Shown here: piece after piece, positions 4,871-63,487 of the stretch
Position numbering within the stretch: position 1 is the stretch's first letter
Layout: the number at the start of each line of letters is the position of its first letter
NCBI GenBank assembly: GCA_963726265.1
Contig: CAVSBQ010000002.1
Coordinates: forward strand, 6,486-70,485
Length of the DNA stretch: 64,000 nt
Direction: 5' to 3'
From: Candidatus Aenigmatarchaeota archaeon
GTDB lineage: Archaea > Aenigmatarchaeota > Aenigmatarchaeia > QMZP01 > QMZT01
Notes under the pieces: generated by a model
What the model saw: the letters and a program-made list of their open reading frames with translations, nothing else
Database searches by the model: none
What the model was told of the DNA's origin: nothing
Translations under genes and position numbers: made by a program

Positions 4871-5108
4871 CGCCGGGAACAGGATTCGAACCTGTGTGGG
4901 CTTGCGCAAGCGCAAGCATCCGCATGACGCACGCTTCGCGCGCGTCGGTCTGCTTAAGCCTTTTTCGCCCACCGGATCTCCCGAAGGATTGCTGGGGTTG
5001 CTCCTCATGTTCCGCCGATCAGAGTCAAGCCATGAAGTCATCGCGCCACAAGGGCGCTCGTAAGATCCAGTTCTCAAGTCCGGCGCGTTACCGCTCCGCC
5101 ATCCCGGC
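4871..5108 (-). tRNA. tRNA-Ser(UGA), class II, with two insertions (putative introns); no encoded CCA
   Basis: On the reverse strand the acceptor GCCGGGA pairs with TCCCGGC. The D arm is GCG/GAGCGGTAA/CGC. The anticodon stem is CCGGA/TCCGG with loop CUUGAGA. The T arm is ACAGG-TTCGAAT-CCTGT and the discriminator is G. The two anticodon-stem halves are separated by ~95 nt (4977-5071). The variable-arm stem TGGGC/GCCCA encloses ~65 nt (4902-4966). Confidence 0.8.
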
Positions 5109-5172
5109 GTAATTCTAATTAATGTCTGTTCTGTTTAAATATATGCTTTCGCCGCCTGCCGGCTTTAAGAAA

Positions 5173-5376
5173 TCAGAGCTTCAGCTCGTGCTTGAAATCG
5201 CTTTCCTCCGCCTTGTTCAGCTGCCATGCCTCTTCCAATATCATGTTGGGTATGGTTTCGTCGAAAATCGGGAAGGCTAACCCGCACTTCCTGCACAGGA
5301 GAAACATTCCCTTCTCGTGTATCCCGCCCCTGCACCTCGGGCATGCCATGACGTCGAGGAGTCTTTTGTCTATCAT
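5173..5376 (-). CDS. trm112: Trm112-family zinc-ribbon protein (methyltransferase activator)
   Basis: The 67-aa protein carries LLDVMACPRCRG ... LLCRKCGLAFPIFDETIPNMILEEA, which is typical of the Trm112/DUF343 family. Confidence 0.8.
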   Translation of the reverse strand: MIDKRLLDVMACPRCRGGIHEKGMFLLCRKCGLAFPIFDETIPNMILEEAWQLNKAEESDFKHELKL

Positions 5377-5455
5377 ATTGCTTAAATTTTAGAATCAGGT
5401 TTTAAATTCATTTCCGATGTTTAAACACCCGGGTTGAAGCAAAATTCAGGGTCGT

Positions 5456-5743
5456 CTATATGCCCGCGTTTTTCTCCAGCGCTGCCTTCGCCTGCTTCTT
5501 GTCCTTCTTTATCTCGTCCTTCAGCTTCGGCAGCTTCAGGACGAAGCCGCACTTGCCGCATTTGAACGAGAATGGCCGCATCCATGCCGTTTCAATGCGT
5601 CCTGAAAGGCCGCATTCCGGGCAGACGTAATCGACCTGCGCGGTTTCCGTTCCAGTCGGGACCAGGACGCGCATCCTGCCTTTCTCCTCGCCATTCGAGT
5701 TCTTCAGTACCCTGTTGCTCACGAAGCTGTATTTCCTTTCCAT
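5456..5743 (-). CDS. zinc-ribbon protein, function unknown
   Basis: 95-aa ORF with CPECG ... CGKCG (four Cys) and a Lys-rich C-terminus. Confidence 0.55.
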   Translation of the reverse strand: MERKYSFVSNRVLKNSNGEEKGRMRVLVPTGTETAQVDYVCPECGLSGRIETAWMRPFSFKCGKCGFVLKLPKLKDEIKKDKKQAKAALEKNAGI

Positions 5744-5799
5744 GAAATCACTGTTGAATATTATTTATCCCGGCGCCCATTTAAAAATTACCATGGCGT

Positions 5800-6711
5800 T
5801 CAGCGCACGAGCACCCCCGCTATAAAGGCGAGCATCGCGACGAGCATCCCGATTTTCAGGCGCCTGCTTATCCTGGCGTAGCCCTTCTTCCTTTTCACTT
5901 CCCTGCTCAGCGAGTAGATGCATGAGACGAAGAACGCGTCCGCGACGGCGACGACGGCCAGGTAGCCGAGCCCGAGGATGCCGTAGTAATACGGCAGCAC
6001 GGAAAAGACGACCGCGAGCATGAGCGATGCGACGGCGACGATTATCATGCTCCTCTCCGCGTATTTCATCCTGACGCCTCCGGTAGTCAGGCTGAACCTC
6101 TCCGCGACGGGAGCCGACGCCTTCGAAACCTTCGAGGTGAGCTTTTTCAGGAAGCTCTTCTTGTCGCCTTCCATGTCTTCCATGTCCTTGACTATCTCCC
6201 TCGCGACGTTCGCCAGCATCGCCAGCGCGGTAAGCATGAGCGCGAGCTCGACCTTCAGGAACACGGCCCCGCCGAAAAGGAAGACTGAGCCGACCATGTA
6301 GGCGACGACGAGGTTGCCTACCAGGACCTTGTGCTGCAGCGAGAACGAGTAGAGCACGAGCAGCGCCGAGTTTATGAGCGCGAGCGTGAGGCACAGGCCG
6401 TTGAGCATGAAGGCGCACGCGTTGCCCAGGGCGAAAAGCGCGAGTGCGAATGCGAGCGCAGAGTTACTCGAAACCCTGCCCGACGGTATGGACCTGTCCG
6501 GCCTGTTGACCTTGTCCGCCTCCACGTCGAGATAGTCGTTTATCACGTTCCCGGCCGCGGTTATCGCGAAGACCGCAATAACCGCCAAAAGAGCCGGCAG
6601 CGAGAAAAGATCCTGGAAAGAAAGCCCTACGGCCACCAGCATGCCTATGAACGCGCCGAGAGCCGCCATCGCGCAGTTCAGCGGCCTCGTCATCCCAAGC
6701 AGGTCGAGCAT
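5800..6711 (-). CDS. UbiA-family prenyltransferase, likely digeranylgeranylglyceryl phosphate synthase
   Basis: The 303-aa protein has about 8 TM segments. NDYLDVEADKVNRPDRSIPSGRVS is the UbiA Asp-rich motif as found in archaeal DGGGP synthases. Confidence 0.8.
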   Translation of the reverse strand: MLDLLGMTRPLNCAMAALGAFIGMLVAVGLSFQDLFSLPALLAVIAVFAITAAGNVINDYLDVEADKVNRPDRSIPSGRVSSNSALAFALALFALGNACAFMLNGLCLTLALINSALLVLYSFSLQHKVLVGNLVVAYMVGSVFLFGGAVFLKVELALMLTALAMLANVAREIVKDMEDMEGDKKSFLKKLTSKVSKASAPVAERFSLTTGGVRMKYAERSMIIVAVASLMLAVVFSVLPYYYGILGLGYLAVVAVADAFFVSCIYSLSREVKRKKGYARISRRLKIGMLVAMLAFIAGVLVR

Positions 6712-6772: not shown

Positions 6773-6952
6773 TTAAACAGTCTTGCGCTCTTTCTTGATG
6801 GCCCTGAGCTCCTTGTGCCTGCATTTCCTGCACTTGACCTTTCCCGTCTTCACCTTTACCGCGTCGGCCCTGAGCCTCGCGCCGCAGCGCATGCAGATGT
6901 AGACGCGCGTGAAAAGCCTCGCCTCGGCCTCCGGGAATTTCAGCTTCGTCAT
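6773..6952 (-). CDS. rpl40e: 50S ribosomal protein L40e
   Basis: This 59-aa ORF is below the ORF-track cutoff. It reads [59 protein letters not shown], with the FPEAEAR start and C4 zinc ribbon typical of L40e. Confidence 0.85.
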
Positions 6953-7103
6953 GAGAACACCGCAATCATATCAATAGTCAATATAATAAGCATATACTTG
7001 CCCGGCATATTTAAATGTTTGCGGTTTTCCGTTTTTACTCCAAGAAATTCCTCTTCACCGCCGCTTTAAAAATTCAGGGCTGCTGTCTTCCGGCCTCTTC
7101 AGT

Positions 7104-7352
7104 CTAGTCAGTTTCAATATACGTGTAGACATTTCCGATTTTACGCGTATTTTCGTCCTGTATATGTATCGCCACTTCGAACGGTCCGCCGAATGTTGTT
7201 TCACTGCATTCATTTTTCAGTTCGGTCAGTTTATTTCTAACAAATTTGTCAAGGTCCTCGCGGGACAACCCGTCGGGTATCTCGATATCCTCTCTGTAAG
7301 ACCTATACTTCGGCGCCCTGCCAGTGTAATACAGGATCCTAGTTTTTAGCAT
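7104..7352 (-). CDS. hypothetical protein
   Basis: Intact 82-aa ORF in a lower-GC patch. No motif was recognised. Confidence 0.45.
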   Translation of the reverse strand: MLKTRILYYTGRAPKYRSYREDIEIPDGLSREDLDKFVRNKLTELKNECSETTFGGPFEVAIHIQDENTRKIGNVYTYIETD

Positions 7353-7451
7353 ATTAATCCCTTATAAGTAATTACTTTTTCGCTTTAAAAAGACACGTAT
7401 TTTATCTTTTATTCCAGAACGCCTTTCAAAGCTTCCTTCATGCCCGATGGT

Positions 7452-8982
7452 TTAAAGAAGCTCGGCATGCTGCGGTCTGTAGAACGCGATGTGCCTTTCC
7501 CAGGCCTTGCGCTTTTCCGGGTAATCTTCCCTGTAATGCGCCCCCCGCGACTCCTGCCTCGTGAACGCGGCGCGCACTATGAGCTTCGAGACGAGCAGCA
7601 TGTTCCTTATCTCTATGACGTCCGCGTTTATCCCGTTTAAAGCGATTCTTCTCAGCTCCCTCTGCAGCCCGCTTATTTTCTCCAGCGCTGCTTTCAGGCC
7701 GTCCCCGTTCCTCACGATGCCCGCGTCCTGCCACATGATGCCCTTCAGCGCGGTCCTGATTTCGAGCGGCCTCGCCTTCGAAATTTTCAGCTGGTCCGTG
7801 TTTACGAAATCGATGTCCATGCCTATCGCATACGCTCTCGCCGAATCCGCCGAGCGCGAGGAGAACACGAGCGACTCAAGAAGCGAATTGGATGGCAGCC
7901 TGTTCGCGCCGTGAACCTCGGTGCACGCGGCCTCGCCGAATGCGAAGAGACCAGGGATGTTCGTCTTGCCGTCGGTGTCGGTCTTCAGCCCGCCGCACGC
8001 GTAATGCGCGACCGGCTCGACCGGAATCATGGCCTTCGCGATGTCTATGCCGTTCTCCAGGCATTCCTTGTAGATGGCGGGGAACCTGGCCTTAAGGAAG
8101 GCGCTTCCTTTTTTGCGTATGTCGAGATATACGCTCCCTTTATTCAGCTCGCTGAAAATCGCCCTGGCCACCTCGTCCCTGTTCGCCAGCTCTTTGACAA
8201 AGCGTTTCCCGTTCGCGTCCTTCAGCTTCGCTCCCTCGCCGCGCAGCGACTCGGATATCAGGAAGAACGGCTTCCCTTTCCTTCTCATCGCCGTCGGGTG
8301 GAACTGGACGAACTCCATGTCCTCGACCTCGCAGCCGGCGCGGAAGCCCATAGCGACACCGTCGCCGGTCGCGATTTCCGGGTTCGACGTGTTTTCGTAG
8401 ACCCCGCACAGCCCGCCAGTCGCGACAGCGACGGCTTTCGCAAAAAAATCCTCGACCTTCGAATTCCCGATATCGAACACCCGCGCCCCTATGCACTTCC
8501 CTTTTTTCAAGTATCAACTCAAAAGCGAGATGCTTCTCAAAAATGCGTATTCCGTTGTCTTTCGCGGCGGCTATCATCGCTTTCTCTATTTCCGCGCCCG
8601 TCATGTCGCCGCGGTGGACTATGCGCTTTCTCGAATGGCCGCCTTCCATGCCTAACTCGAAACCGCCCGCCTTCGAATCCCGGTCGAACCTCGCTCCCGT
8701 CGACATGAGCCTCTCGATTTCTTCCGGCGCCTGCTTCACCATGAGTTCCACGGCTTCCCTATCGCACAGGCCATCCCCCGCTTCAAGCGTGTCCTTCACG
8801 TGCAAGGCGAAGCTGTCCTTCTTTGAGAAAACGGCGGCGATCCCGCCCTGCGCGAAGTTCGTGTTCGATTCAAGCGCGTCCTTCTTGGTCACTAGGCAGA
8901 CGCTCCCGAACTCCCTCGCCCGAAGCGCGAAGTTGAGGCCCGCAATCCCAGAACCAATCACCAGAAAATCGGACTTTATCAT
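7452..8982 (-). pseudogene. nadB: L-aspartate oxidase (NadB), one frame disruption in a homopolymer
   Basis: The N-terminal part reads DFLVIGSGIAGL...NFAQGGIAA. The C-terminal part reads FVQFHPT ... ESRGAHYREDYP. The two frames meet at the T6/A6 run 8502-8507. Removing one A gives ELILEKGKCIGARV. Confidence 0.88.
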
Positions 8983-26662: not shown

Positions 26663-27607
26663 TTAATTGCCTCCTGAATTCGGCCCGCCGTTCGGTCCTC
26701 CGTGCGGTCCGTTTGTCAGCTCCGGAACGTCGTCCTCGCTTTCAATGTCGTTCGACAGCTTGTTCTTTATCCTTTCCCTGACCTTTTGGAACCACTGCGG
26801 CGCGTTTTTTAGCAGGTTAACCTTCTTTTCGTCGTACTTGCCGTACATGTTGGCCAGCTTGTCGCACGCCGTGCTGTTGGTGCTGTTCTTGCAGTACTCT
26901 ATGATGTTCTGCCTGCAGTTCGCGTCGTCGAGTTTCAGGGCGCACGATGCTAACGTAAGCGCTTTGCACCTGTTGTCGTCAGGATGCGATTCGCAGAACG
27001 CCTTTATCCTGTCCCTGCAGCTCTCGTTCCCAGCCGGGTCGCATACTATGTTGCCCAGCGCCTTCATCACGGCCTTGCATTTTTCAGGGTTGTTCTCGCA
27101 GTAGTCCTTTACCTTTTCGGCCTTTTCCACTGCCTTCCAGAGCCTAGCGGCCTGTATGACATACGCGTTGTAGCTCACTCCGCCGAGGGTAAGCGTCCCG
27201 GCCCAGATCTCCTTGTCGCCTTTGACATACGAGTTGAGGGAAATGGAACCCAACTGATTCGTGCCGTTGATGTCGTACACGTTCGCCGTAGCCGTGCCGT
27301 TGCCTATCACCACGTCCTTTAGCCTGTATTTCGTTTCTCCGAAGTGGAGCACGCCAGTTCTCACGATAGTTTCAGTGCCGTTCGCGTCCGTCACGCTCAC
27401 GCCGGCGATGCCGACCTTGAGCAGCTCGAAGTCCATGGGGTTCGTCTGTGAAATCGCAAGCCCGTTGCCTAGCGCTCCCATGGTATGTATCTTGGCGCGC
27501 ATCTGGGCCTGCGAACCCAGTGTTTCGTCTGCCATCACTGCCGTTCCTGTTATGCCTATCAGCCCTATGACCAGAAGGGCGATTGCCAATGCCGTTATTT
27601 TCTTCAT
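26663..27607 (-). CDS. secreted protein with a Cys-rich helical C-terminal region, function unknown
   Basis: The probable start is MKKITALAIALLVIGLIGITGTAVMA at 27607. C-x-n-C motifs recur (CENNPEKC, CDPAGNESC, CESHPDDNRC, ...). The tail is PNGGPNSGGN. Confidence 0.65.
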   Translation of the reverse strand: MKKITALAIALLVIGLIGITGTAVMADETLGSQAQMRAKIHTMGALGNGLAISQTNPMDFELLKVGIAGVSVTDANGTETIVRTGVLHFGETKYRLKDVVIGNGTATANVYDINGTNQLGSISLNSYVKGDKEIWAGTLTLGGVSYNAYVIQAARLWKAVEKAEKVKDYCENNPEKCKAVMKALGNIVCDPAGNESCRDRIKAFCESHPDDNRCKALTLASCALKLDDANCRQNIIEYCKNSTNSTACDKLANMYGKYDEKKVNLLKNAPQWFQKVRERIKNKLSNDIESEDDVPELTNGPHGGPNGGPNSGGN

Positions 27608-27760
27608 CTCATCTACCTCCTGTATTATATTCAAATATTTTGATTCTGCTCGGAACCGTCCTCGCGGAAAGTCCCGCGAACTCATGCTAATACTATACCG
27701 TTTCGCCTATTAGAAAACTCCCTGAAACAATGTGAAACAATTATTTTTTTCGTGCGTAAT

Positions 27761-28619
27761 TCATTTCTTGTAGAAGAGGCGGTTCGTCCTGCCGACGCGC
27801 TCCTTCTCGACCAGGCCTTTCGCTTCCAGCTTCTTCACCAGCCTCGTCATCTTCGCCCGCGAGAATTTCAGCTCCTTCCCGACCTTGTTCTGCATTATCC
27901 TTTTTTCCTTGGCGAGGATGAGCAGAAGCCTGCGCTCGTCCTCGGAGAAGCCGCGCTCGAACTCGTGTTTCATCCTTCTTCCTGTAATACGCTACAAGGT
28001 AGGCGCTATCGGCAACAATGGCGAAGCCCATCACGGCCATCACGATAAGCGAGTAGTCGCTGTTCGTGTTGTAGAACTTCAGCGACACCAGCGTCTCCAC
28101 GCCGCCTTCCGGGTGCCATGCGATGTAAATCCTCTCGCCGTCGCTGAGTAGTTTCATGCGCTTCGGGATAGACCACGTTCCTGTATACCGCGAAACCGGC
28201 CGGCAGGAAGGCCCTTATGCTAATCCTGTCCGCCTGCGGCGGCTTCAGGCTGGCCGAAAAGCTGTAGACGCTATCGCTGGAAAAAACAAGGTCCTTTGCC
28301 GTGAAGCGCATGAGCAGCCTTTCCGTCGCTTGGGGCGACGGTGAACCTGACGTTGTATTCGCCGCCGCTTTTATCCAGGGTGTACTGGGATGCTGTTAAC
28401 GCCGTCGGAGACCGAGAGGTCGGATATCTCCCCGAGGACGGCGTAGTTCAGCGAGCTGGCGTTGAGCGCAGAGGCGAAGGCCATCGAGACGCTCTCGTGA
28501 ACGCTCGTGTCTGGCATTATCTCGAATGTGATATTGTAGTCGGATATGTCCAGCGCGCTCGCTGCATGCGCAGCAAGGGCCAGCCATAAAAACAATACAG
28601 CAACAACTGCTCCTCTCAT
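27761..28619 (-). pseudogene. membrane-anchored protein with C-terminal MarR/TrmB-like wHTH, four frame disruptions
   Basis: A coherent protein can be traced through four frame changes. It runs signal peptide (MRGAVVAVLFLWLALAAHA), then QYTLDKSGGEYNVRFTVAPSDGK, then LLMRFTAKDLVFSS..., then MKLLSDGERIYIAW...TM(LIVMAVMGFAIVA), then wHTH (ERRLLLILAKEKRIMQNKVGKELKFSRAKMTRLVKKLEAKGLVEKE). Confidence 0.65.
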
Positions 28620-28855
28620 AATTCAAAAATAAAGGAAATGGAAATAAATTGGTTTTCAGTCAGCGAAGTGTCCAGTTTATTCCTTTTTGTGCTCGTGTTT
28701 CGCTTCCGCGTGCTCGGCCTTGTGTTCGTTTTTGCGCTTCCGTGTGGCCTTCATGCGCGTGTTCCGCAGGTTTCTCGTGATGAGCTTCCTTGTGTTCCTT
28801 CGCTTCTTCGTGCTTCTTTTCGGCATGCTCCGCTTTGTGCTCTTCCTTGTGTTCC

Positions 28856-29299
28856 TTATGCTCCGCTTTCCTCTTTTTTCTCCTCGTGTTTCGCTTCTTT
28901 CTTCTCTTCCTTGTGCTCTTCCTTGCCGAAAAGCTTCGCGAGCGATTCCTTGCCGTACGCAATGGCTTTCATGTTGACCTGGACTATTTCCTCGGAAAGC
29001 GTGTTGCCCCTGATGATTTTTCGCCTTCGTTCGCCTTTCGTCGTCGGGTGGAAGCCCGTTCCGCCCGTGAGCAGCATCTTCTTCCTGCCGACGCCAATCA
29101 CCTCTGGTCGCATGGGGAAGCCCTGCTTGTCCGAGCCGCCGGTTATCTGGAATTCGTAACCCTGCATGCCCAGGAAATCGCCTTTTACCTTTTCGCCTAT
29201 TCTCCTGCCCAGAAGGCCGGATTCCTTTTCCCCGACTTCCTTCTGGAACGTTCGCTTCGTCTTCGGATCCGCTACAACTATCTTGAACACACAAACCAC
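28856..29299 (-). CDS. rps6e: 30S ribosomal protein S6e (the core is intact; a His/Lys/Glu-rich tail continues to ~28677 in other frames)
   Basis: FKIVVADPKTKRTFQKEV...GYEFQITGGSDKQGFPMRPEV...KGERRRKIIRGNTLSEEIVQVN is canonical S6e. Confidence 0.9.
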   Translation of the reverse strand: MVCVFKIVVADPKTKRTFQKEVGEKESGLLGRRIGEKVKGDFLGMQGYEFQITGGSDKQGFPMRPEVIGVGRKKMLLTGGTGFHPTTKGERRRKIIRGNTLSEEIVQVNMKAIAYGKESLAKLFGKEEHKEEKKEAKHEEKKEESGA

Positions 29300-29379
29300 C
29301 TCTCCTCAGGCAGGCCCATAATGCCGGGCCGTTCCGAGTTCTTTATACCTCTATAATTGGGCTCATCTTTTAAAAGCGT

Positions 29380-29677
29380 TTAGCGTTTATAGTGCAGGTC
29401 AGGCAGAGGGCAGGCAAGCGTCTTCTCAACATCCTCTTTATTCGCTCCTCTGACCAGTATGACCTTGTCCTTCGCCCTGAAGCCGCTCACGATTTCCACG
29501 TCCTTCCCCAGCAGCCGCTTCAGGCCTTTCACTATTTCGAGATTCGCCTTCCCCTCATGCGGCGGCGACGTGACTTCGAGAATAAGCTTGACCGTCTTTC
29601 CCGTAAAGGGCGAATTTCCTGGAGCCTGGCTTGACCCTTACCTCCAGCAGCACGCCGTCCCTGGTTTCCCTTATCAT
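29380..29677 (-). pseudogene. DUF167 (YggU-like) protein, one extra base
   Basis: MIRETRDGVLLEVRVKPGSRKFALYGKD is followed by a shift, then VKLILEVTSPPHEGKANLEIVKGLKRLLGKDVEIVSGFRAKDKVILVRG. The span is 298 nt (3n+1), and the extra base is at gac[g]gtc. Confidence 0.7.
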
Positions 29678-29715
29678 ATCAGTTCTTATTTTAATTTGAA
29701 ACAATATTAGTTATT

Positions 29716-30508
29716 ATGGATTTTGATGAAGGAGGGCTGTTCTCGAGGCAGATTCCGTTTCTCGGTGAGGAGAGGCAGGACGCGCTTTCTAAGGCGAAAG
29801 TCGCCGTCATCGGCGCCGGAGGCCTGGGCAGCTTCGTCTCCTCGCTGCTGGTGAGGGCAGGCGTCGGCGTCATCCGCATAATCGACCCTGACGTGGTCGA
29901 GCTTTCCAACCTTCCGAGAACGATTATATACAGGCAGAAGGATGCCGGCAAATCCAAGGCGTTCATACTCGCGGAGCGCCTGTCGGGCATTAACCCCGAT
30001 TCCAGGGTCGACGGGAAGATAGAGAGCTTCAATGCTTACAAAGCGGAAAAGCTGCTCGCGGGCTTCGGCGTGGTGGCCGACTGCACTGACAGCATGGCGT
30101 CACGCCACGAGATAAACAGGTTCTGCGTGGATAACAGGCTTCCGTGGGTTCACGGCGCGGTGACCAGGGACGAGGGCGTCTCAGCGACATTCGCAGCGGC
30201 GGAAGGCCGTGCTTCAACTGCCTCTATCACGACAAGATGGACGAGATGCGAATGAGGCGGAAAAAACAGGCGCAGTAAAAACCGGCGACGCCGGAGTCAT
30301 CGGCCCTGCTGTTGCGACCGTCGCGGCATGGCAGTCTATGGAAGTGATAAAGATAATCACGGGCCTGGCCGAACCGAATTATGGCAAGCTTTACAGACTG
30401 AAGCTCGGCAGGCCGGGCTTCGAGATTCTCGCGCTCAAACCCTGGGAGGACTGCGGCGTGTGCGGCAAGGACATGCTGAGCAGAAGGCTCAGGGACAAAG
30501 AGGGATAG
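29716..30508 (+). pseudogene. ThiF/MoeB/HesA-family E1-like adenylyltransferase, two frame disruptions (~30,195 and ~30,250)
   Basis: KVAVIGAGGLGSFVSSLLVRAGVGVIRIIDPDVVELSNLPR is the Rossmann/E1 motif. The CFNCLY Cys motif falls in the middle frame. The C-terminal part reads GVIGPAVATVAAWQSMEVIKIITG ... CGVCG. Confidence 0.75.
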
Positions 30509-30511
30509 ACG

Positions 30512-31661
30512 ATGCTCAGGAAAATGTTCAGGAAAAAAATAATCATCAAATACGGCGAGCTCTGGCTGAAATCAGAGCCGGTGCGCATGCGCTTTTTGGA
30601 AACGCTCGCCTGACAACGTGAGAAGCCAGCTCAAGCGGGCTGGGGTAAGGGACTTCAGACTGGAGAAAGACGAGGGACATGCTGATTCTCGAGTGCACGC
30701 ACAGGAAATGCCCCGAGGTTCTCGGAAAGGTTTTCGGGGTTTCATGGTTCGCTTTCGCAGTTGAGACGCAGCCGACGATGAAGGCGATAGAGAAGCCCGT
30801 GCTCGCGCTCGCGAAAAAAATCGGCAGGGAGCAGACCTTCGCCGTCCGCGCGAGCAGGAGCGACAAGACGCTCGCCGTTCACCAGCAAGGACGTCGAGAA
30901 CAGGATGGGCGCCAAGATAAGGAGGAAGGTCGACCTTTCGAAGCCCGACGTCACGCTTTTCATCGAGTTCAGAAAGGACAGGGCTTATGTTTATTCGGAA
31001 AAGATAAGGGGCGCGGGAGGGCTTCCATACGGCGTTACGGGCAAGGTCCTGTCGCTCATTTCAGGAGGCATCGATTCGCCCGTCGCGAGCTGGCTCATGA
31101 TGAAACGCGGCTGCTCGGTCGATTTCGTTCACTTCAACGCCGTGGAAAGCGATGTCGCGAAACTCAAAGGCCTGGTGAAGAAACTCGGCGAATATGCGCC
31201 CGCGAAGCTCGCGCTTCACGCAGTGCCTTTCGCGATCTGTCCAGGAGGCGATTGTGAAGCACTGCGAGCGCCGCTTCACCTGCGTGCTCTGCAAGAGGCT
31301 CATGTACAAGGCCGCGGCGCAGCTCGCGGAAACGACGAAAGCGAAGGCGTTGGTGACTGGCGAAAACTTGGCCCAGGTCGCTTCCCAGACGCTGGACAAT
31401 CTCGTCGCGAATGACGATGCGGTTTCGCTGCCGCTTTTCAGGCCGCTGCTGTGCATGGACAAGGAGGAGACCATCATCCTCGCGAAGAAAATCGGGACAT
31501 ATGACCTCTCGATAAAGCAGGCGCACGCATGCAGGTTCGTGCCGCGCAAGCCGGCCACTGCCGCAAAAAGCGGAGTCCTCGTGCGCGAGGAAAAGAGGAT
31601 AAAGCAGCTGGACAGAATCGTAAAGAAGGCGGTAAGCTCGCCGATAAAAACGCTGGTGTGA
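30512..31661 (+). pseudogene. thiI: tRNA 4-thiouridine synthase ThiI, four frame disruptions
   Basis: IIIKYGELWLKSEPVR is the N-terminal ferredoxin-like/THUMP start. VLSLISGGIDSPVASWLMMKRG is the PP-loop SGGxDS. LVTGENLAQVASQTLDNL is also present. The frames change at ~30,609, ~30,676, ~30,876 and ~31,240. Confidence 0.85.
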
Positions 31662-31663
31662 AA

Positions 31664-32177
31664 ATGGCCAAAAAGAAAAAGTTCAGGAATGCGCTTTTCA
31701 TCGGCCGCTTCCAGCCGTTCCACGACGGCCATCTCAAGGTCATCCAGGACATCGCGCAGGAAAGCGAGGCGCTCGTCATAGTCATCGCAGGCCCCGCCCG
31801 GCCGGACCGCAGGAATCCCTTCTCGTTCAAAGAGCGGAAGCGCATGGTTCAGCTCGCGCTGCGCGGCGAAGGGATAAAATATTCGATACACGAGACCCAT
31901 GACGTCAACGACGACGGGAGATGGAACAGGCACGTCAAAAAGTTCGGCCGCTTCGACGTCGCGTATTCTCGCAATCCCTGGACGGCGCGCTGTCTCAAGG
32001 CGCTTGGCATCCCCGTGAAAAAGCACAGGTTCTACGAGCGCTACAAGAACTGCGGCAGGGAAATAAGAAAGCGCATCCTGCACGGGAAGCGCTGGGATTC
32101 TCTGGTGCCGCAGGCTGTTTACAGCGTACGTCAGGAAAATAAACGGCGAGGCAAGGCTGAAAACAATATGCAAATAA
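31664..32177 (+). pseudogene. nicotinamide-nucleotide adenylyltransferase (archaeal NMNAT type), C-terminal frame disruption (~32,125)
   Basis: ALFIGRFQPFHDGHLKVI is the (H/T)xGH motif. After ...WDSLVPQAVY the plausible ending YVRKINGEARLKTICK* lies in the +1 frame. The span is 3n+1. Confidence 0.75.
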
Positions 32178-32542: not shown

Positions 32543-34141
32543 ATGAAAAAAAGGAAATATGAAGATGGAGAAGGTCAGAAAATAGCTGCTCAGAAAGTTC
32601 GTGACCTGTTAAAAAGGTTGGATATTTCCGAAGAAAAGATACCTGATGAACTGAGCGCAAGACTATTTTACGATAATGGAGCGGCGTCTCTCCTTTCTAT
32701 TGCCTATAACAGTTCAACTATAAGGGCAATTGAGGCTGCATATCCTGGTAAATTCAAACCTTGGCAGTTCAAACGAAAACCAAAAGGCATATGGCAGGGG
32801 GGAAATGCTTACAAAAATGCAGCGGAAGCAACCAGATGGCTGGTGGAGGAAAAACTCAAAATTTCTCTCAAAAAAGCCTCAAAAAAGGTAACCAGAGATG
32901 TTTTCACAGAATATGGATTATCTGGGATGTTAGATACCCTCTTTGGTGGGAACCCTTATCGTGCACTAGTCAATGCCTACCCCAAACTATATAAAGTTAG
33001 TGATGTTCAAAAAACTGAAAAGAGGGGAATAGAATCCACGGAAATTAGTGATGACGATAAAGAATTTATAATTAAGAGATTTGAGCCATTAGCAAAGTAT
33101 TTGGCTTCCAAATATTTGCATCAGACCAAGTCATTAAAATATGATGATTTGGTTCAGATGGGTAGGATTGGAGTTTACTTTGCTGTAAGAGATTTAGGCT
33201 TAACCAAAAAAAACTTCAAGAGATTCAGCAGACAAATAAAATATTACATAATCAATACAGTGAGAGATGCTATCAATAAAGGATACGACAGAATACTTGA
33301 TTTCTCATGCAGTGTGGATGACTATGTCTTCGAAAATAACAAAAAAAGATCTCTCGTGGAGATAATAACTGAAAAACACAAGGAACTTTTTGGTGAAAGA
33401 ATTTTAACTTCCAAAGAAAGGAATTTGAGGTTCTATGGCATCTTAGAAAGGGGACTTTCTAAAGAGGAATACGAAAAATTAAAGGAGGAAATAGCAAAAA
33501 CCATTACGAGACTAGAAACGAGAATGGCTAATATCTCTTGGGATCCTATGGACGAGGCTTTGGAATTTGTTAGAAAATATGCACCTCGTCATAAAAATAC
33601 CCAGAAATGGGAACTTGGAAAACGTACAAATCTATGGGGAGGAGGAGCGGGAAGAAGGTTGGCAAAACAAGCTATACGTTACCTGTTTGAAGAAAAGCTA
33701 AAAATCCCAGAGGAAACAATCCCAGAGGTTACAAGTAGCCGTCTATTTCACGATAATGGATTGGGTGGTATGCTGCTTCAACTTTACGATGGTATGTCAT
33801 TTTTAGCAGTAAGTGATGCTTATCCAAATAAATTCAAACCTTGGGAATTTAAAAACAGACCGCATCTATGGGGAACTAAGGATGGAATGAAATACGCGGC
33901 GGAAGCAACCAGATGGCTGGTGGAGGAAAAACTGGGGATTCCGCCAAATGAGGCATTGAAAAAAGTCAAAGCACAGGACTTCAAAGATTATAGATTATGG
34001 GGGATGCTGATGACACTTTTTAAAGGTGATGGTGGATACCATCATGCCATTTTAAATGCCTATCCTGAATTAGTCCAAGCGGATCAGCCTACTGGAGATA
34101 TAAATCCACATATAAGAAAATCTAATAATAGCTATAGATGA
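32543..34141 (+). CDS. protein with a sigma-70-like core (regions 2 and 4-like) flanked by two copies of a ~145-aa unknown domain
   Basis: Intact 532-aa ORF in a low-GC region. The centre reads LAKYLASKYLHQTKSLKYDDLVQMGRIGVYFAVRDLG..FKRFSRQIKYYIINTVRDAI (compare sigma-70 r2 ..KY....L.DLIQEGNIGL..AV.KF...FSTYA...I..AI) and LTSKERNLRFYG...TITRLETR (compare r4 L..RE..VL.LRFG...RIRQIE). N-terminal aa ~20-165 and C-terminal aa ~370-515 are paralogous. An exact 35-nt repeat lies at 32822-32856 and 33899-33933 (AAEATRWLVEEKL). Confidence 0.75.
   Translation: MKKRKYEDGEGQKIAAQKVRDLLKRLDISEEKIPDELSARLFYDNGAASLLSIAYNSSTIRAIEAAYPGKFKPWQFKRKPKGIWQGGNAYKNAAEATRWLVEEKLKISLKKASKKVTRDVFTEYGLSGMLDTLFGGNPYRALVNAYPKLYKVSDVQKTEKRGIESTEISDDDKEFIIKRFEPLAKYLASKYLHQTKSLKYDDLVQMGRIGVYFAVRDLGLTKKNFKRFSRQIKYYIINTVRDAINKGYDRILDFSCSVDDYVFENNKKRSLVEIITEKHKELFGERILTSKERNLRFYGILERGLSKEEYEKLKEEIAKTITRLETRMANISWDPMDEALEFVRKYAPRHKNTQKWELGKRTNLWGGGAGRRLAKQAIRYLFEEKLKIPEETIPEVTSSRLFHDNGLGGMLLQLYDGMSFLAVSDAYPNKFKPWEFKNRPHLWGTKDGMKYAAEATRWLVEEKLGIPPNEALKKVKAQDFKDYRLWGMLMTLFKGDGGYHHAILNAYPELVQADQPTGDINPHIRKSNNSYR

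Positions 34142-56085: not shown

Positions 56086-63487
<7,402 letters not shown>

What the first reader, a model, noticed from the sequence alone, without database searches (positions are those of the whole stretch)
27741..32177. Indel hot-spot: ~14 frame disruptions in six consecutive genes within 4.4 kb
The disrupted genes are the membrane wHTH protein (4), the S6e tail (2), DUF167 (1), the ThiF-like E1 (2), thiI (4) and NMNAT (1). In contrast, 38.8-50.8 kb (11 genes) and the 5.5-kb ORF at 57974-63487 have none. Several resolved sites look like single extra bases outside homopolymers: ctcgcc[t]gac, gaggga[c]atg, acgctc[g]ccg, ttc[g]cga and gac[g]gtc. Others elsewhere fall in homopolymers, namely the nadB A-run, the AMMECR1 G4 run and the S6e-tail A-runs. 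Uniform sequencing error does not predict such clustering. Possible causes are local low coverage or strain mixture in a consensus, or genuine decay of a sulfur-relay/thiolation/NAD block in a reduced genome.
Basis: partly seen in the sequence, partly recalled or inferred. Interest (0 to 1): 0.6.

Follow-up and report, generated by a model that had tools for sequence, protein, structure and literature searches.

The report
Assembly-made frameshift cluster, not gene decay
Fourteen one-base frame breaks really are packed into six neighbouring genes of this small archaeal genome, but they look like errors made when the genome was assembled from mixed strains, so the genes are probably intact in the living cell.

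Summary
A frameshift-aware alignment to the intact orthologues of a same-genus genome finds exactly 14 frame changes at window 27974-32126, split 4/2/1/2/4/1 over the wHTH membrane protein, S6e tail, DUF167, ThiF-like E1, ThiI and NMNAT. This is the densest such patch on the 1.1-Mb contig, at about 3 per kb against roughly 0.1-0.2 per kb elsewhere.

The lesions do not look like decay:
- All are one-base events and 12 of 14 are insertion-type, mostly outside homopolymers and without a shared motif.
- There are no in-frame stops in 1359 corrected codons.
- The frame-corrected products give end-to-end Pfam matches and are 60-81% identical to the relative, like the intact neighbour (70%).

The same +1-biased lesions occur genome-wide, including in essential gatD and gatE, and in guaB and purA. 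Two small contigs of the same assembly are strain variants of the gatE-gatD region. Both lack the extra bases and have the genes open, and the main contig's sequence at each site is the two strain alleles written side by side.

Best reading, at about 0.85: a consensus artefact of a strain-collapsed, probably long-read, assembly. Genuine decay of a sulfur-relay/NAD block is unlikely.

The parts
27761..28619 (-). Membrane protein with a C-terminal winged-helix (DUF7343/MarR-like) domain, split over five frames. Single extra bases at about 28388, 28339, 28149 and 27974.
   Evidence: 59.5% identical over 279 aa to the intact 284-aa G004 orthologue, with no in-frame stop. The HMM finds all four switches independently.
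28677..29299 (-). Ribosomal protein S6e with a His/Lys/Glu-rich C-terminal tail. The core is intact. The tail is spread over three frames, with changes at about 28870 (A-run, +1-equivalent) and 28728 (extra C).
   Evidence: 81% identical to the 196-aa G004 S6e, which has the same tail in one frame. The terminal HAEAKHEHKKE-stop matches the G004 C-terminus.
29380..29704 (-). DUF167 (YggU family) gene, with one extra base at about 29590.
   Evidence: The joined product matches PF02594 positions 1-75 of 76 (E 2e-15). The separate fragments gave no hit.
29716..30508 (+). ThiF-family E1-like gene, with two deletion-type frame changes at about 30193 and about 30276.
   Evidence: The joined product matches PF00899 positions 1-236 of 238 (E 5e-60).
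30512..31661 (+). ThiI (tRNA 4-thiouridine synthase: ferredoxin-like, THUMP and PP-loop domains), with single extra bases at 30611, 30666, 30877 and 31235.
   Evidence: 74% identical over 374 aa to G004. The nucleotide alignment shows four isolated one-base gaps in G004. The joined product covers 98-99% of intact 383-386-aa orthologues.
31665..32177 (+). NMNAT-like cytidylyltransferase, with one extra base at 32126, 15 codons before the stop.
   Evidence: 65.6% identical to the intact 172-aa G004 orthologue.
26711..27607 (-). Left flank control: an intact secreted Cys-rich protein with no frame change.
   Evidence: 70% identical to the G004 orthologue in a single frame.
32543..34141 (+). Right flank control: an intact 532-aa ORF in a low-GC (0.39) islet.

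Best explanation
The 14 frame breaks are errors of the deposited consensus, not features of the organism.

The genome is a DPANN (Aenigmatarchaeota) metagenome-assembled genome with one 1.1-Mb contig. I infer that it was built by an overlap/consensus (long-read type) assembler from a population holding several closely related strains. Where reads of different strains were collapsed into one consensus, a strain difference was sometimes written as both alleles side by side. That adds one base and shifts the frame. The 4.2-kb block is a stretch where this happened unusually often, through strong or evenly balanced strain heterogeneity, poor polishing or low coverage. In the cell the six genes are most probably intact and functional.

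Shown: the lesions, their spectrum, their genome-wide spread, and the both-alleles signature at gatE and gatD.

Inferred: that the same process made the focal sites, and the sequencing and assembly type.

Of the 0.85 given to 'artefact', roughly 0.55 is the strain-collapse mechanism and 0.30 a plain low-coverage or unpolished patch.
For: 1. Lesion spectrum. All 14 are one-base events and 12 are insertion-type. There are no in-frame stops in 1359 corrected codons, against about 5 expected at 10 substitutions per indel (P = 0.006). There are no larger deletions.

2. The genes are otherwise healthy. The corrected products give end-to-end Pfam matches. Identity to G004 is 60-81%, against 70% for the intact neighbour.

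3. No shared sequence motif. About 8 of 11 extra bases lie outside homopolymers.

4. The process is genome-wide. The HMM finds 182 frameshift-like switches with a +1:-1 ratio of 119:63, while ordinary gene boundaries give 189:197. Four of six spot-checked events are true frameshifts (nadA, nadB, trxB-like, AMMECR1). +1 breaks sit in gatD, gatE, guaB, purA, purF and purD.

5. Counts per window are over-dispersed, so the events are patchy.

6. Contigs C3 (98.5% identical) and C4 (95-96%) of the same assembly are strain variants of C2:293177-298824. Both lack the extra base at the gatE and gatD breaks and have both genes in one open frame.

7. At both of those sites C3 and C4 differ from each other, and C2 equals the shortest common superstring of the two alleles: GTC-A / GCG-A gives GTCGA, and CCA-C / CAT-C gives CCATC.

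8. ThiI is open in 20 or more related genomes.

9. Indel-caused false frameshifts and strain-collapsed consensus are well documented for long-read metagenome assemblies (PMC9262707, PMC8302730, bioRxiv 10.1101/2021.08.23.457338).
Against: - No reads could be examined, so none of the 14 focal sites is tested directly.
- No alternative contig covers the focal block.
- No second assembly of this species exists in the collections. Three encoded proteins (two intact neighbours and the ThiF N-terminal fragment) form singleton clusters, and the best ThiI relative is 74% identical.
- The both-alleles signature cannot be demonstrated in the focal block. In 7 of 9 informative sites the extra base would be a synonymous wobble alternative, but the null is 0.65 (P = 0.33).
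- The sequencing platform and assembler are not known to me.
- Several affected genes (ThiI, ThiF-like, DUF167) are dispensable in many DPANN archaea. Only the S6e tail and the last 15 codons of NMNAT are hit. Essentiality therefore does not argue strongly for this block by itself.
Confidence: 0.85

Rival explanations
1. Artefact, but without strain involvement. The block is a stretch of locally low coverage, or an unpolished or gap-filled patch, in a noisy insertion-prone long-read assembly, and the extra bases are random read errors that survived the consensus step.
For: The patch is sharply bounded at about 4.2 kb, roughly the length of a read. The extra bases are random and non-homopolymer. 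Low-coverage long-read bins are known to need polishing (PMC9262707). The wobble-alternative test in the focal block is not significant.
Against: At the only two sites with an internal control (gatE, gatD), the extra base is exactly the other strain's allele at a strain-variable position. Random error does not predict that. I estimate the joint chance at roughly 1e-3. Residual errors from low coverage would usually include more deletions and homopolymer errors.
Confidence: 0.3
2. Genuine, very recent pseudogenisation. This strain has really lost ThiI, the ThiF-like E1, DUF167, the wHTH protein and the ends of S6e and NMNAT as part of genome reduction.
For: DPANN genomes are reduced, and tRNA thiolation and sulfur-relay genes are variably present. 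The lesions are in the deposited sequence. C2 carries private, codon-periodic substitutions in the gatE region, so it does represent a distinct lineage, at least in part.
Against: Fourteen independent one-base indels occur with no nonsense mutation, no larger deletion and no drop in conservation. The insertion bias runs opposite to the deletion bias generally described for prokaryotic pseudogenes (my own knowledge). The same lesion type breaks essential gatD/gatE, plus guaB/purA, elsewhere. Co-assembled strain variants are intact there. The affected genes are functionally unrelated.
Confidence: 0.08
3. The extra bases are real and are tolerated. Either the cell corrects them (programmed +1 frameshifting, quadruplet decoding, or RNA-level deletion), or they come from a real insertion-biased mutational process tied to recombination between diverged strain alleles.
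For: The sign bias is strong (+1) and the downstream frames are perfectly preserved, as in systems with conserved decoded frameshifts (for example Perkinsus mitochondria, bioRxiv 10.1101/2022.02.17.480897). The both-alleles pattern could in principle come from heteroduplex misrepair.
Against: The 11 sites share no slippery or shift-prone motif and no common codon. No site is conserved in G004, and the gatE and gatD breaks elsewhere on the contig are absent from C3/C4, whereas decoded frameshifts are conserved. Two of the 14 are deletion-type. No such mechanism is known in archaea.
Confidence: 0.03

Closest known systems
False frameshifts from indel errors in long-read (Nanopore or PacBio) assemblies and MAGs, as measured by IDEEL and corrected by proovframe or Kastor (PMC9262707; bioRxiv 10.1101/2021.08.23.457338; PMC12007338)
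   Same: One-base indels split otherwise conserved genes. They occur genome-wide, depend on local consensus quality, and disappear in better consensus sequences.
   Different: The classic Nanopore case is dominated by homopolymer indels, often deletions. Here most events are insertions of a non-neighbour base outside homopolymers, and they come in kb-scale patches.
Collapsed-strain ('strain-oblivious') consensus in long-read metagenome assembly (Strainberry paper, PMC8302730)
   Same: Several conspecific strains are merged into one contig, and alternative strain contigs (here C3 and C4) are left beside it. Indels and frameshifts appear in the merged consensus.
   Different: The paper does not describe the specific 'both alleles written side by side' signature. 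Here it is shown at two sites only (gatE, gatD) and is inferred for the focal block.
Pseudogene blocks in reduced genomes of symbionts
   Same: Runs of neighbouring disrupted genes in a small genome.
   Different: Real decay shows mixed lesions (nonsense, deletions of many sizes, deletion bias) and relaxed constraint. None of that is seen here.

Membership tests
Assembly consensus indel artefact (strain-collapsed long-read MAG) | Lesions are only one-base indels in otherwise conserved, full-length genes | tested here: met
   14 of 14 are one-base events with no stops in 1359 codons, and Pfam matches run end to end after frame correction.
Assembly consensus indel artefact (strain-collapsed long-read MAG) | The same lesion type is spread over the genome, essential genes included, and is patchy | tested here: met
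   182 frameshift-like switches with a +1 bias of 119:63 and over-dispersed counts. gatD, gatE, guaB, purA, purF, purD, nadA, nadB and a trxB-like gene are broken.
Assembly consensus indel artefact (strain-collapsed long-read MAG) | Alternative sequences of the same population lack the indel | tested here: inconclusive
   Met at the gatE and gatD sites, where C3 and C4 are intact. No alternative contig or second assembly covers the focal block.
Assembly consensus indel artefact (strain-collapsed long-read MAG) | The extra base equals the other allele of an adjacent strain polymorphism | tested here: inconclusive
   Met at gatE and gatD. In the focal block it is only compatible: 7 of 9, null 0.65, P = 0.33.
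Assembly consensus indel artefact (strain-collapsed long-read MAG) | Raw reads do not support the extra bases | not testable with these tools
Genuine pseudogene block (genome reduction) | Mixed lesion types (nonsense, multi-base deletions) and a deletion bias | tested here: not met
   No stops and no multi-codon deletions specific to the block, and 12 of 14 events are insertion-type.
Genuine pseudogene block (genome reduction) | Relaxed constraint, or lesions shared with relatives | tested here: not met
   Identity to G004 is 60-81% against 70% for the intact neighbour. G004 has all six genes intact, and ThiI is open in 20 or more relatives.
Programmed frameshifting or recoding | A conserved shift-prone motif at the sites | tested here: not met
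   The 11 contexts all differ (ATC[C]CAG, ACC[G]TCG, ACT[A]CTC, GCC[T]GAC and others).
Programmed frameshifting or recoding | The frameshift site is conserved in orthologues | tested here: not met
   The breaks are absent from G004 at all 14 focal sites, and the gatE and gatD breaks elsewhere on the contig are absent from C3 and C4.
Transcriptional slippage rescue at homopolymer tracts (endosymbiont poly(A) type) | The breaks lie in long homopolymer runs | tested here: not met
   Only about 3 of the 11 +1 sites, plus the S6e A-run, touch runs of 3 or more bases. None is a long tract.

The most novel reading that the evidence does not exclude
The extra bases are physically present in a living Aenigmatarchaeota lineage. 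A real, insertion-biased mutational process would then leave both alleles of a strain polymorphism in tandem, for example misrepair of heteroduplex DNA during recombination between diverged strains. That would give bursts of +1 frameshifts in recombination tracts, which are then either purged or tolerated by some unknown correction.
Probability: 0.03. Interest if true: 0.85.

Novelty: not a real feature. Interest (0 to 1): 0.07.

Why it matters
Its importance is practical. Taken at face value, this genome would be scored as lacking tRNA 4-thiouridine synthesis, an E1-like sulfur-transfer enzyme and parts of NAD, purine and Gln-tRNA metabolism. That would feed false 'gene loss' into reconstructions of DPANN metabolism and host dependence. 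The deposited annotation already carries fragment proteins: the 179-aa ThiF N-terminal piece is on record as a protein. The patches also mark where strain heterogeneity was collapsed, which is useful for anyone re-assembling the sample. The finding is not new biology.

Tried and rejected
- A first metric, coverage by stop-to-stop ORFs of 150 aa or more, failed. Long antisense ORFs in GC-rich coding DNA mask the fragmentation. I replaced it with a frame HMM.
- Plain tblastn ran straight through frame changes. I replaced it with my own frameshift-aware alignment.
- Independent assemblies of the same species: exact-protein look-ups and cluster look-ups found only this genome. The best ThiI relative is 74% identical. 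The genome-contig scan returned only G004, a Lac Pavin sediment MAG.
- The idea that hot-spots sit next to low-GC, strain-variable islets was rejected. Frameshift-like events lie no closer to low-GC kilobases than random positions do (P = 0.67).
- Testing whether the focal extra bases are synonymous wobble alternatives gave 7 of 9 against a null of 0.65, which is not significant.
- Counting nonsense lesions genome-wide from same-frame resumptions is uninformative, because ordinary same-frame gene boundaries dominate.
- A stop-codon context (GCC TGA C at 30611, resembling prfB) occurs at one site only, so I treat it as coincidence.
Full report
**What is there.**
The window is C2:6486-70485 of a 1.13-Mb, four-contig genome; C2 alone is 1,105,251 bp. 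Names attached to ThiI homologues place it in the Aenigmatarchaeota (DPANN archaea). The closest held relative, G004, is a Lac Pavin sediment MAG.

Between 27.7 and 32.2 kb the ORF map is shattered. Pfam identifies the pieces as:
- a membrane protein with a DUF7343/MarR-type winged helix
- ribosomal protein S6e
- DUF167
- a ThiF-family E1-like enzyme
- ThiI
- a cytidylyltransferase of the NMNAT type

**Checking the count.**
G004 carries intact orthologues of all six genes. Plain tblastn ran through the breaks, so I wrote a protein-to-DNA alignment with explicit frameshift states.

No stop codon occurs in the corrected frames. Identity to G004 is 60-81%. The intact upstream neighbour (26711-27607) aligns in one frame at 70%.

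A nucleotide alignment of ThiI shows the four breaks as isolated one-base gaps in G004. Eleven breaks are single extra bases and one in the S6e A-run is equivalent to +1. The two in ThiF are deletion-type.

The contexts share no motif, and about eight of the eleven extra bases are not extensions of a homopolymer. The joined products give end-to-end domain matches: ThiF 1-236/238, ThiI 1-195/197 plus THUMP and the ferredoxin-like domain, and DUF167 1-75/76. The joined ThiI covers 98-99% of intact 383-386-aa orthologues.

**Is it a hot-spot?**
I trained a three-periodic fourth-order Markov model on 524 long ORFs. I then ran a seven-state Viterbi frame tracker over C2. Without any homology, it recovers nine of the 14 focal breaks.

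Genome-wide it finds 568 same-strand frame switches. Of these, 182 are 'frameshift-like', meaning the old frame stays open well past the switch. The focal block is the top 4.4-kb window: 7 detected against a mean of 0.72, with 0.003 windows of 7 or more expected under Poisson.

Counts per window are over-dispersed, so breaks come in patches. With the true count of 14 and a background of 0.1-0.3 per kb, P is below 1e-9.

**The process is genome-wide and +1-biased.**
Frameshift-like switches split 119:63 in favour of the insertion sign. Ordinary gene boundaries split 189:197.

I spot-checked six background events in this window by Pfam on the joined fragments:
- AMMECR1, nadB, nadA and a thioredoxin-reductase-like gene are true frameshifts, three of the four being +1.
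- One event (ThyX) is ambiguous.
- One is a gene boundary.

Reading the HMM segment translations confirms each of them. Among them, gatD and gatE are essential in archaea, on my own knowledge of the pathway.

**An internal control.**
Contigs C3 (5,645 bp, 98.5% identical) and C4 (6,026 bp, 95-96%) are strain variants of C2:293177-298824, the gatE-gatD region. Both lack the extra base at the C2 gatE break (about 293898-293900) and at the gatD break (about 297214-297217). In both contigs gatE and gatD read in one open frame.

In the three-way alignment C3 and C4 differ from each other exactly at these two places. C2 equals the shortest common superstring of the two alleles:
- GTC-A and GCG-A become GTCGA. 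In coding sense this is a Leu wobble CTG/CTC written as CTCG.
- CCA-C and CAT-C become CCATC. This is codon GTG versus GAT written as GATG.

About 4-6% of columns differ between C3 and C4. The chance that two random insertions both land beside such a column and both copy the other allele is therefore of order 1e-3, by my rough estimate. This is the signature of a consensus computed from reads of mixed strains. A de Bruijn short-read assembler could not create such a string. I therefore infer an overlap/consensus (long-read type) assembly.

C2 also carries private substitutions with three-base periodicity in this region. At least three haplotypes therefore co-occur.

**Why not decay?**
Fourteen independent indels with no nonsense mutation are unlikely under a natural spectrum. 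About 3.7% of random substitutions in these codons would create a stop. At ten substitutions per indel, about five stops are expected, and P(0) = 0.006.

The remaining evidence points the same way:
- The insertion bias is opposite to the deletion bias generally described for prokaryotic pseudogenes (my own knowledge).
- Conservation is undiminished.
- The affected genes are functionally mixed.
- ThiI is open in 20 or more relatives.

**Why not recoding?**
The sites share no motif. None is conserved in G004, and the gatE and gatD breaks elsewhere on the contig are absent from C3/C4. Two of the 14 have the opposite sign.

**What remains open.**
No alternative contig covers the focal block. No second assembly of this species is in the collections.

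The both-alleles signature cannot be shown in the block itself. In 7 of 9 informative sites the extra base would be a synonymous wobble alternative, but 65% is expected by chance. The focal verdict therefore rests on the lesion spectrum and on analogy with the gatE/gatD control. Whether the patch reflects strain collapse or plain low coverage is not settled.

Proximity to low-GC islets does not explain the patches.

**Context.**
Indel-caused false frameshifts in long-read MAGs, the need to polish low-coverage bins, and strain-oblivious collapse of conspecific strains are all documented (PMC9262707, PMC8302730, bioRxiv 10.1101/2021.08.23.457338). Other agents of this scan report the same 'two alleles side by side' artefact in other genomes. 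I read those notes after finding the pattern, and I treat them as agreement, not evidence.

**Verdict.**
It is an ordinary, if unusually dense, assembly artefact.

Noticed in passing
outside the window: contigs C3 and C4 against C2:293177-298824: Two small contigs in the bin are strain variants (98.5% and 95-96% identical) of the gatE-gatD region of the main contig, and both start at the same C2 coordinate. C2 has private codon-periodic substitutions there, so at least three haplotypes co-occur. The bin therefore holds redundant sequence.
   Followed up: yes
window 57244-57996: Four frameshift-like frame switches lie within 750 nt, directly upstream of the 5.5-kb ORF (57974-63487). The giant gene probably starts near 56.9 kb, with its 5' part broken by the same kind of indels.
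   Followed up: no
window ~1045, ~8493, ~10684, ~53698, ~51802: There are more true frameshifts in the window: AMMECR1 (deletion-type), nadB, nadA and a thioredoxin-reductase-like gene (all +1). A possible break in ThyX is ambiguous, because there are two Thy1 stretches.
   Followed up: partly
window 28677-28960 and L011:6217-6807: The His/Lys/Glu-rich C-terminal tail of S6e is also present, in one frame, in the same-genus genome G004. It is therefore a real lineage feature and not a by-product of the frameshifts.
   Followed up: partly
L011 (G004:C4:56000-74000) 5041-6150 and 6866-8054: G004 has extra genes that the window lacks: a 369-aa ORF between the wHTH gene and S6e, and 116-aa and 265-aa ORFs between S6e and DUF167. 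The neighbourhood is rearranged within the genus.
   Followed up: no
window 32813-32856 and 33890-33933: A 44-nt repeat (93% identical) lies inside the 532-aa ORF of the low-GC islet, matching its internally duplicated domain (ATRWLVEEKL... occurs twice).
   Followed up: no
outside the window: C2:812541-820630: A giant Asn/Ser/Thr-rich surface protein of more than 2,600 aa changes frame five times within 1.4 kb. The HMM reads the changes as alternating +1 and -1.
   Followed up: no
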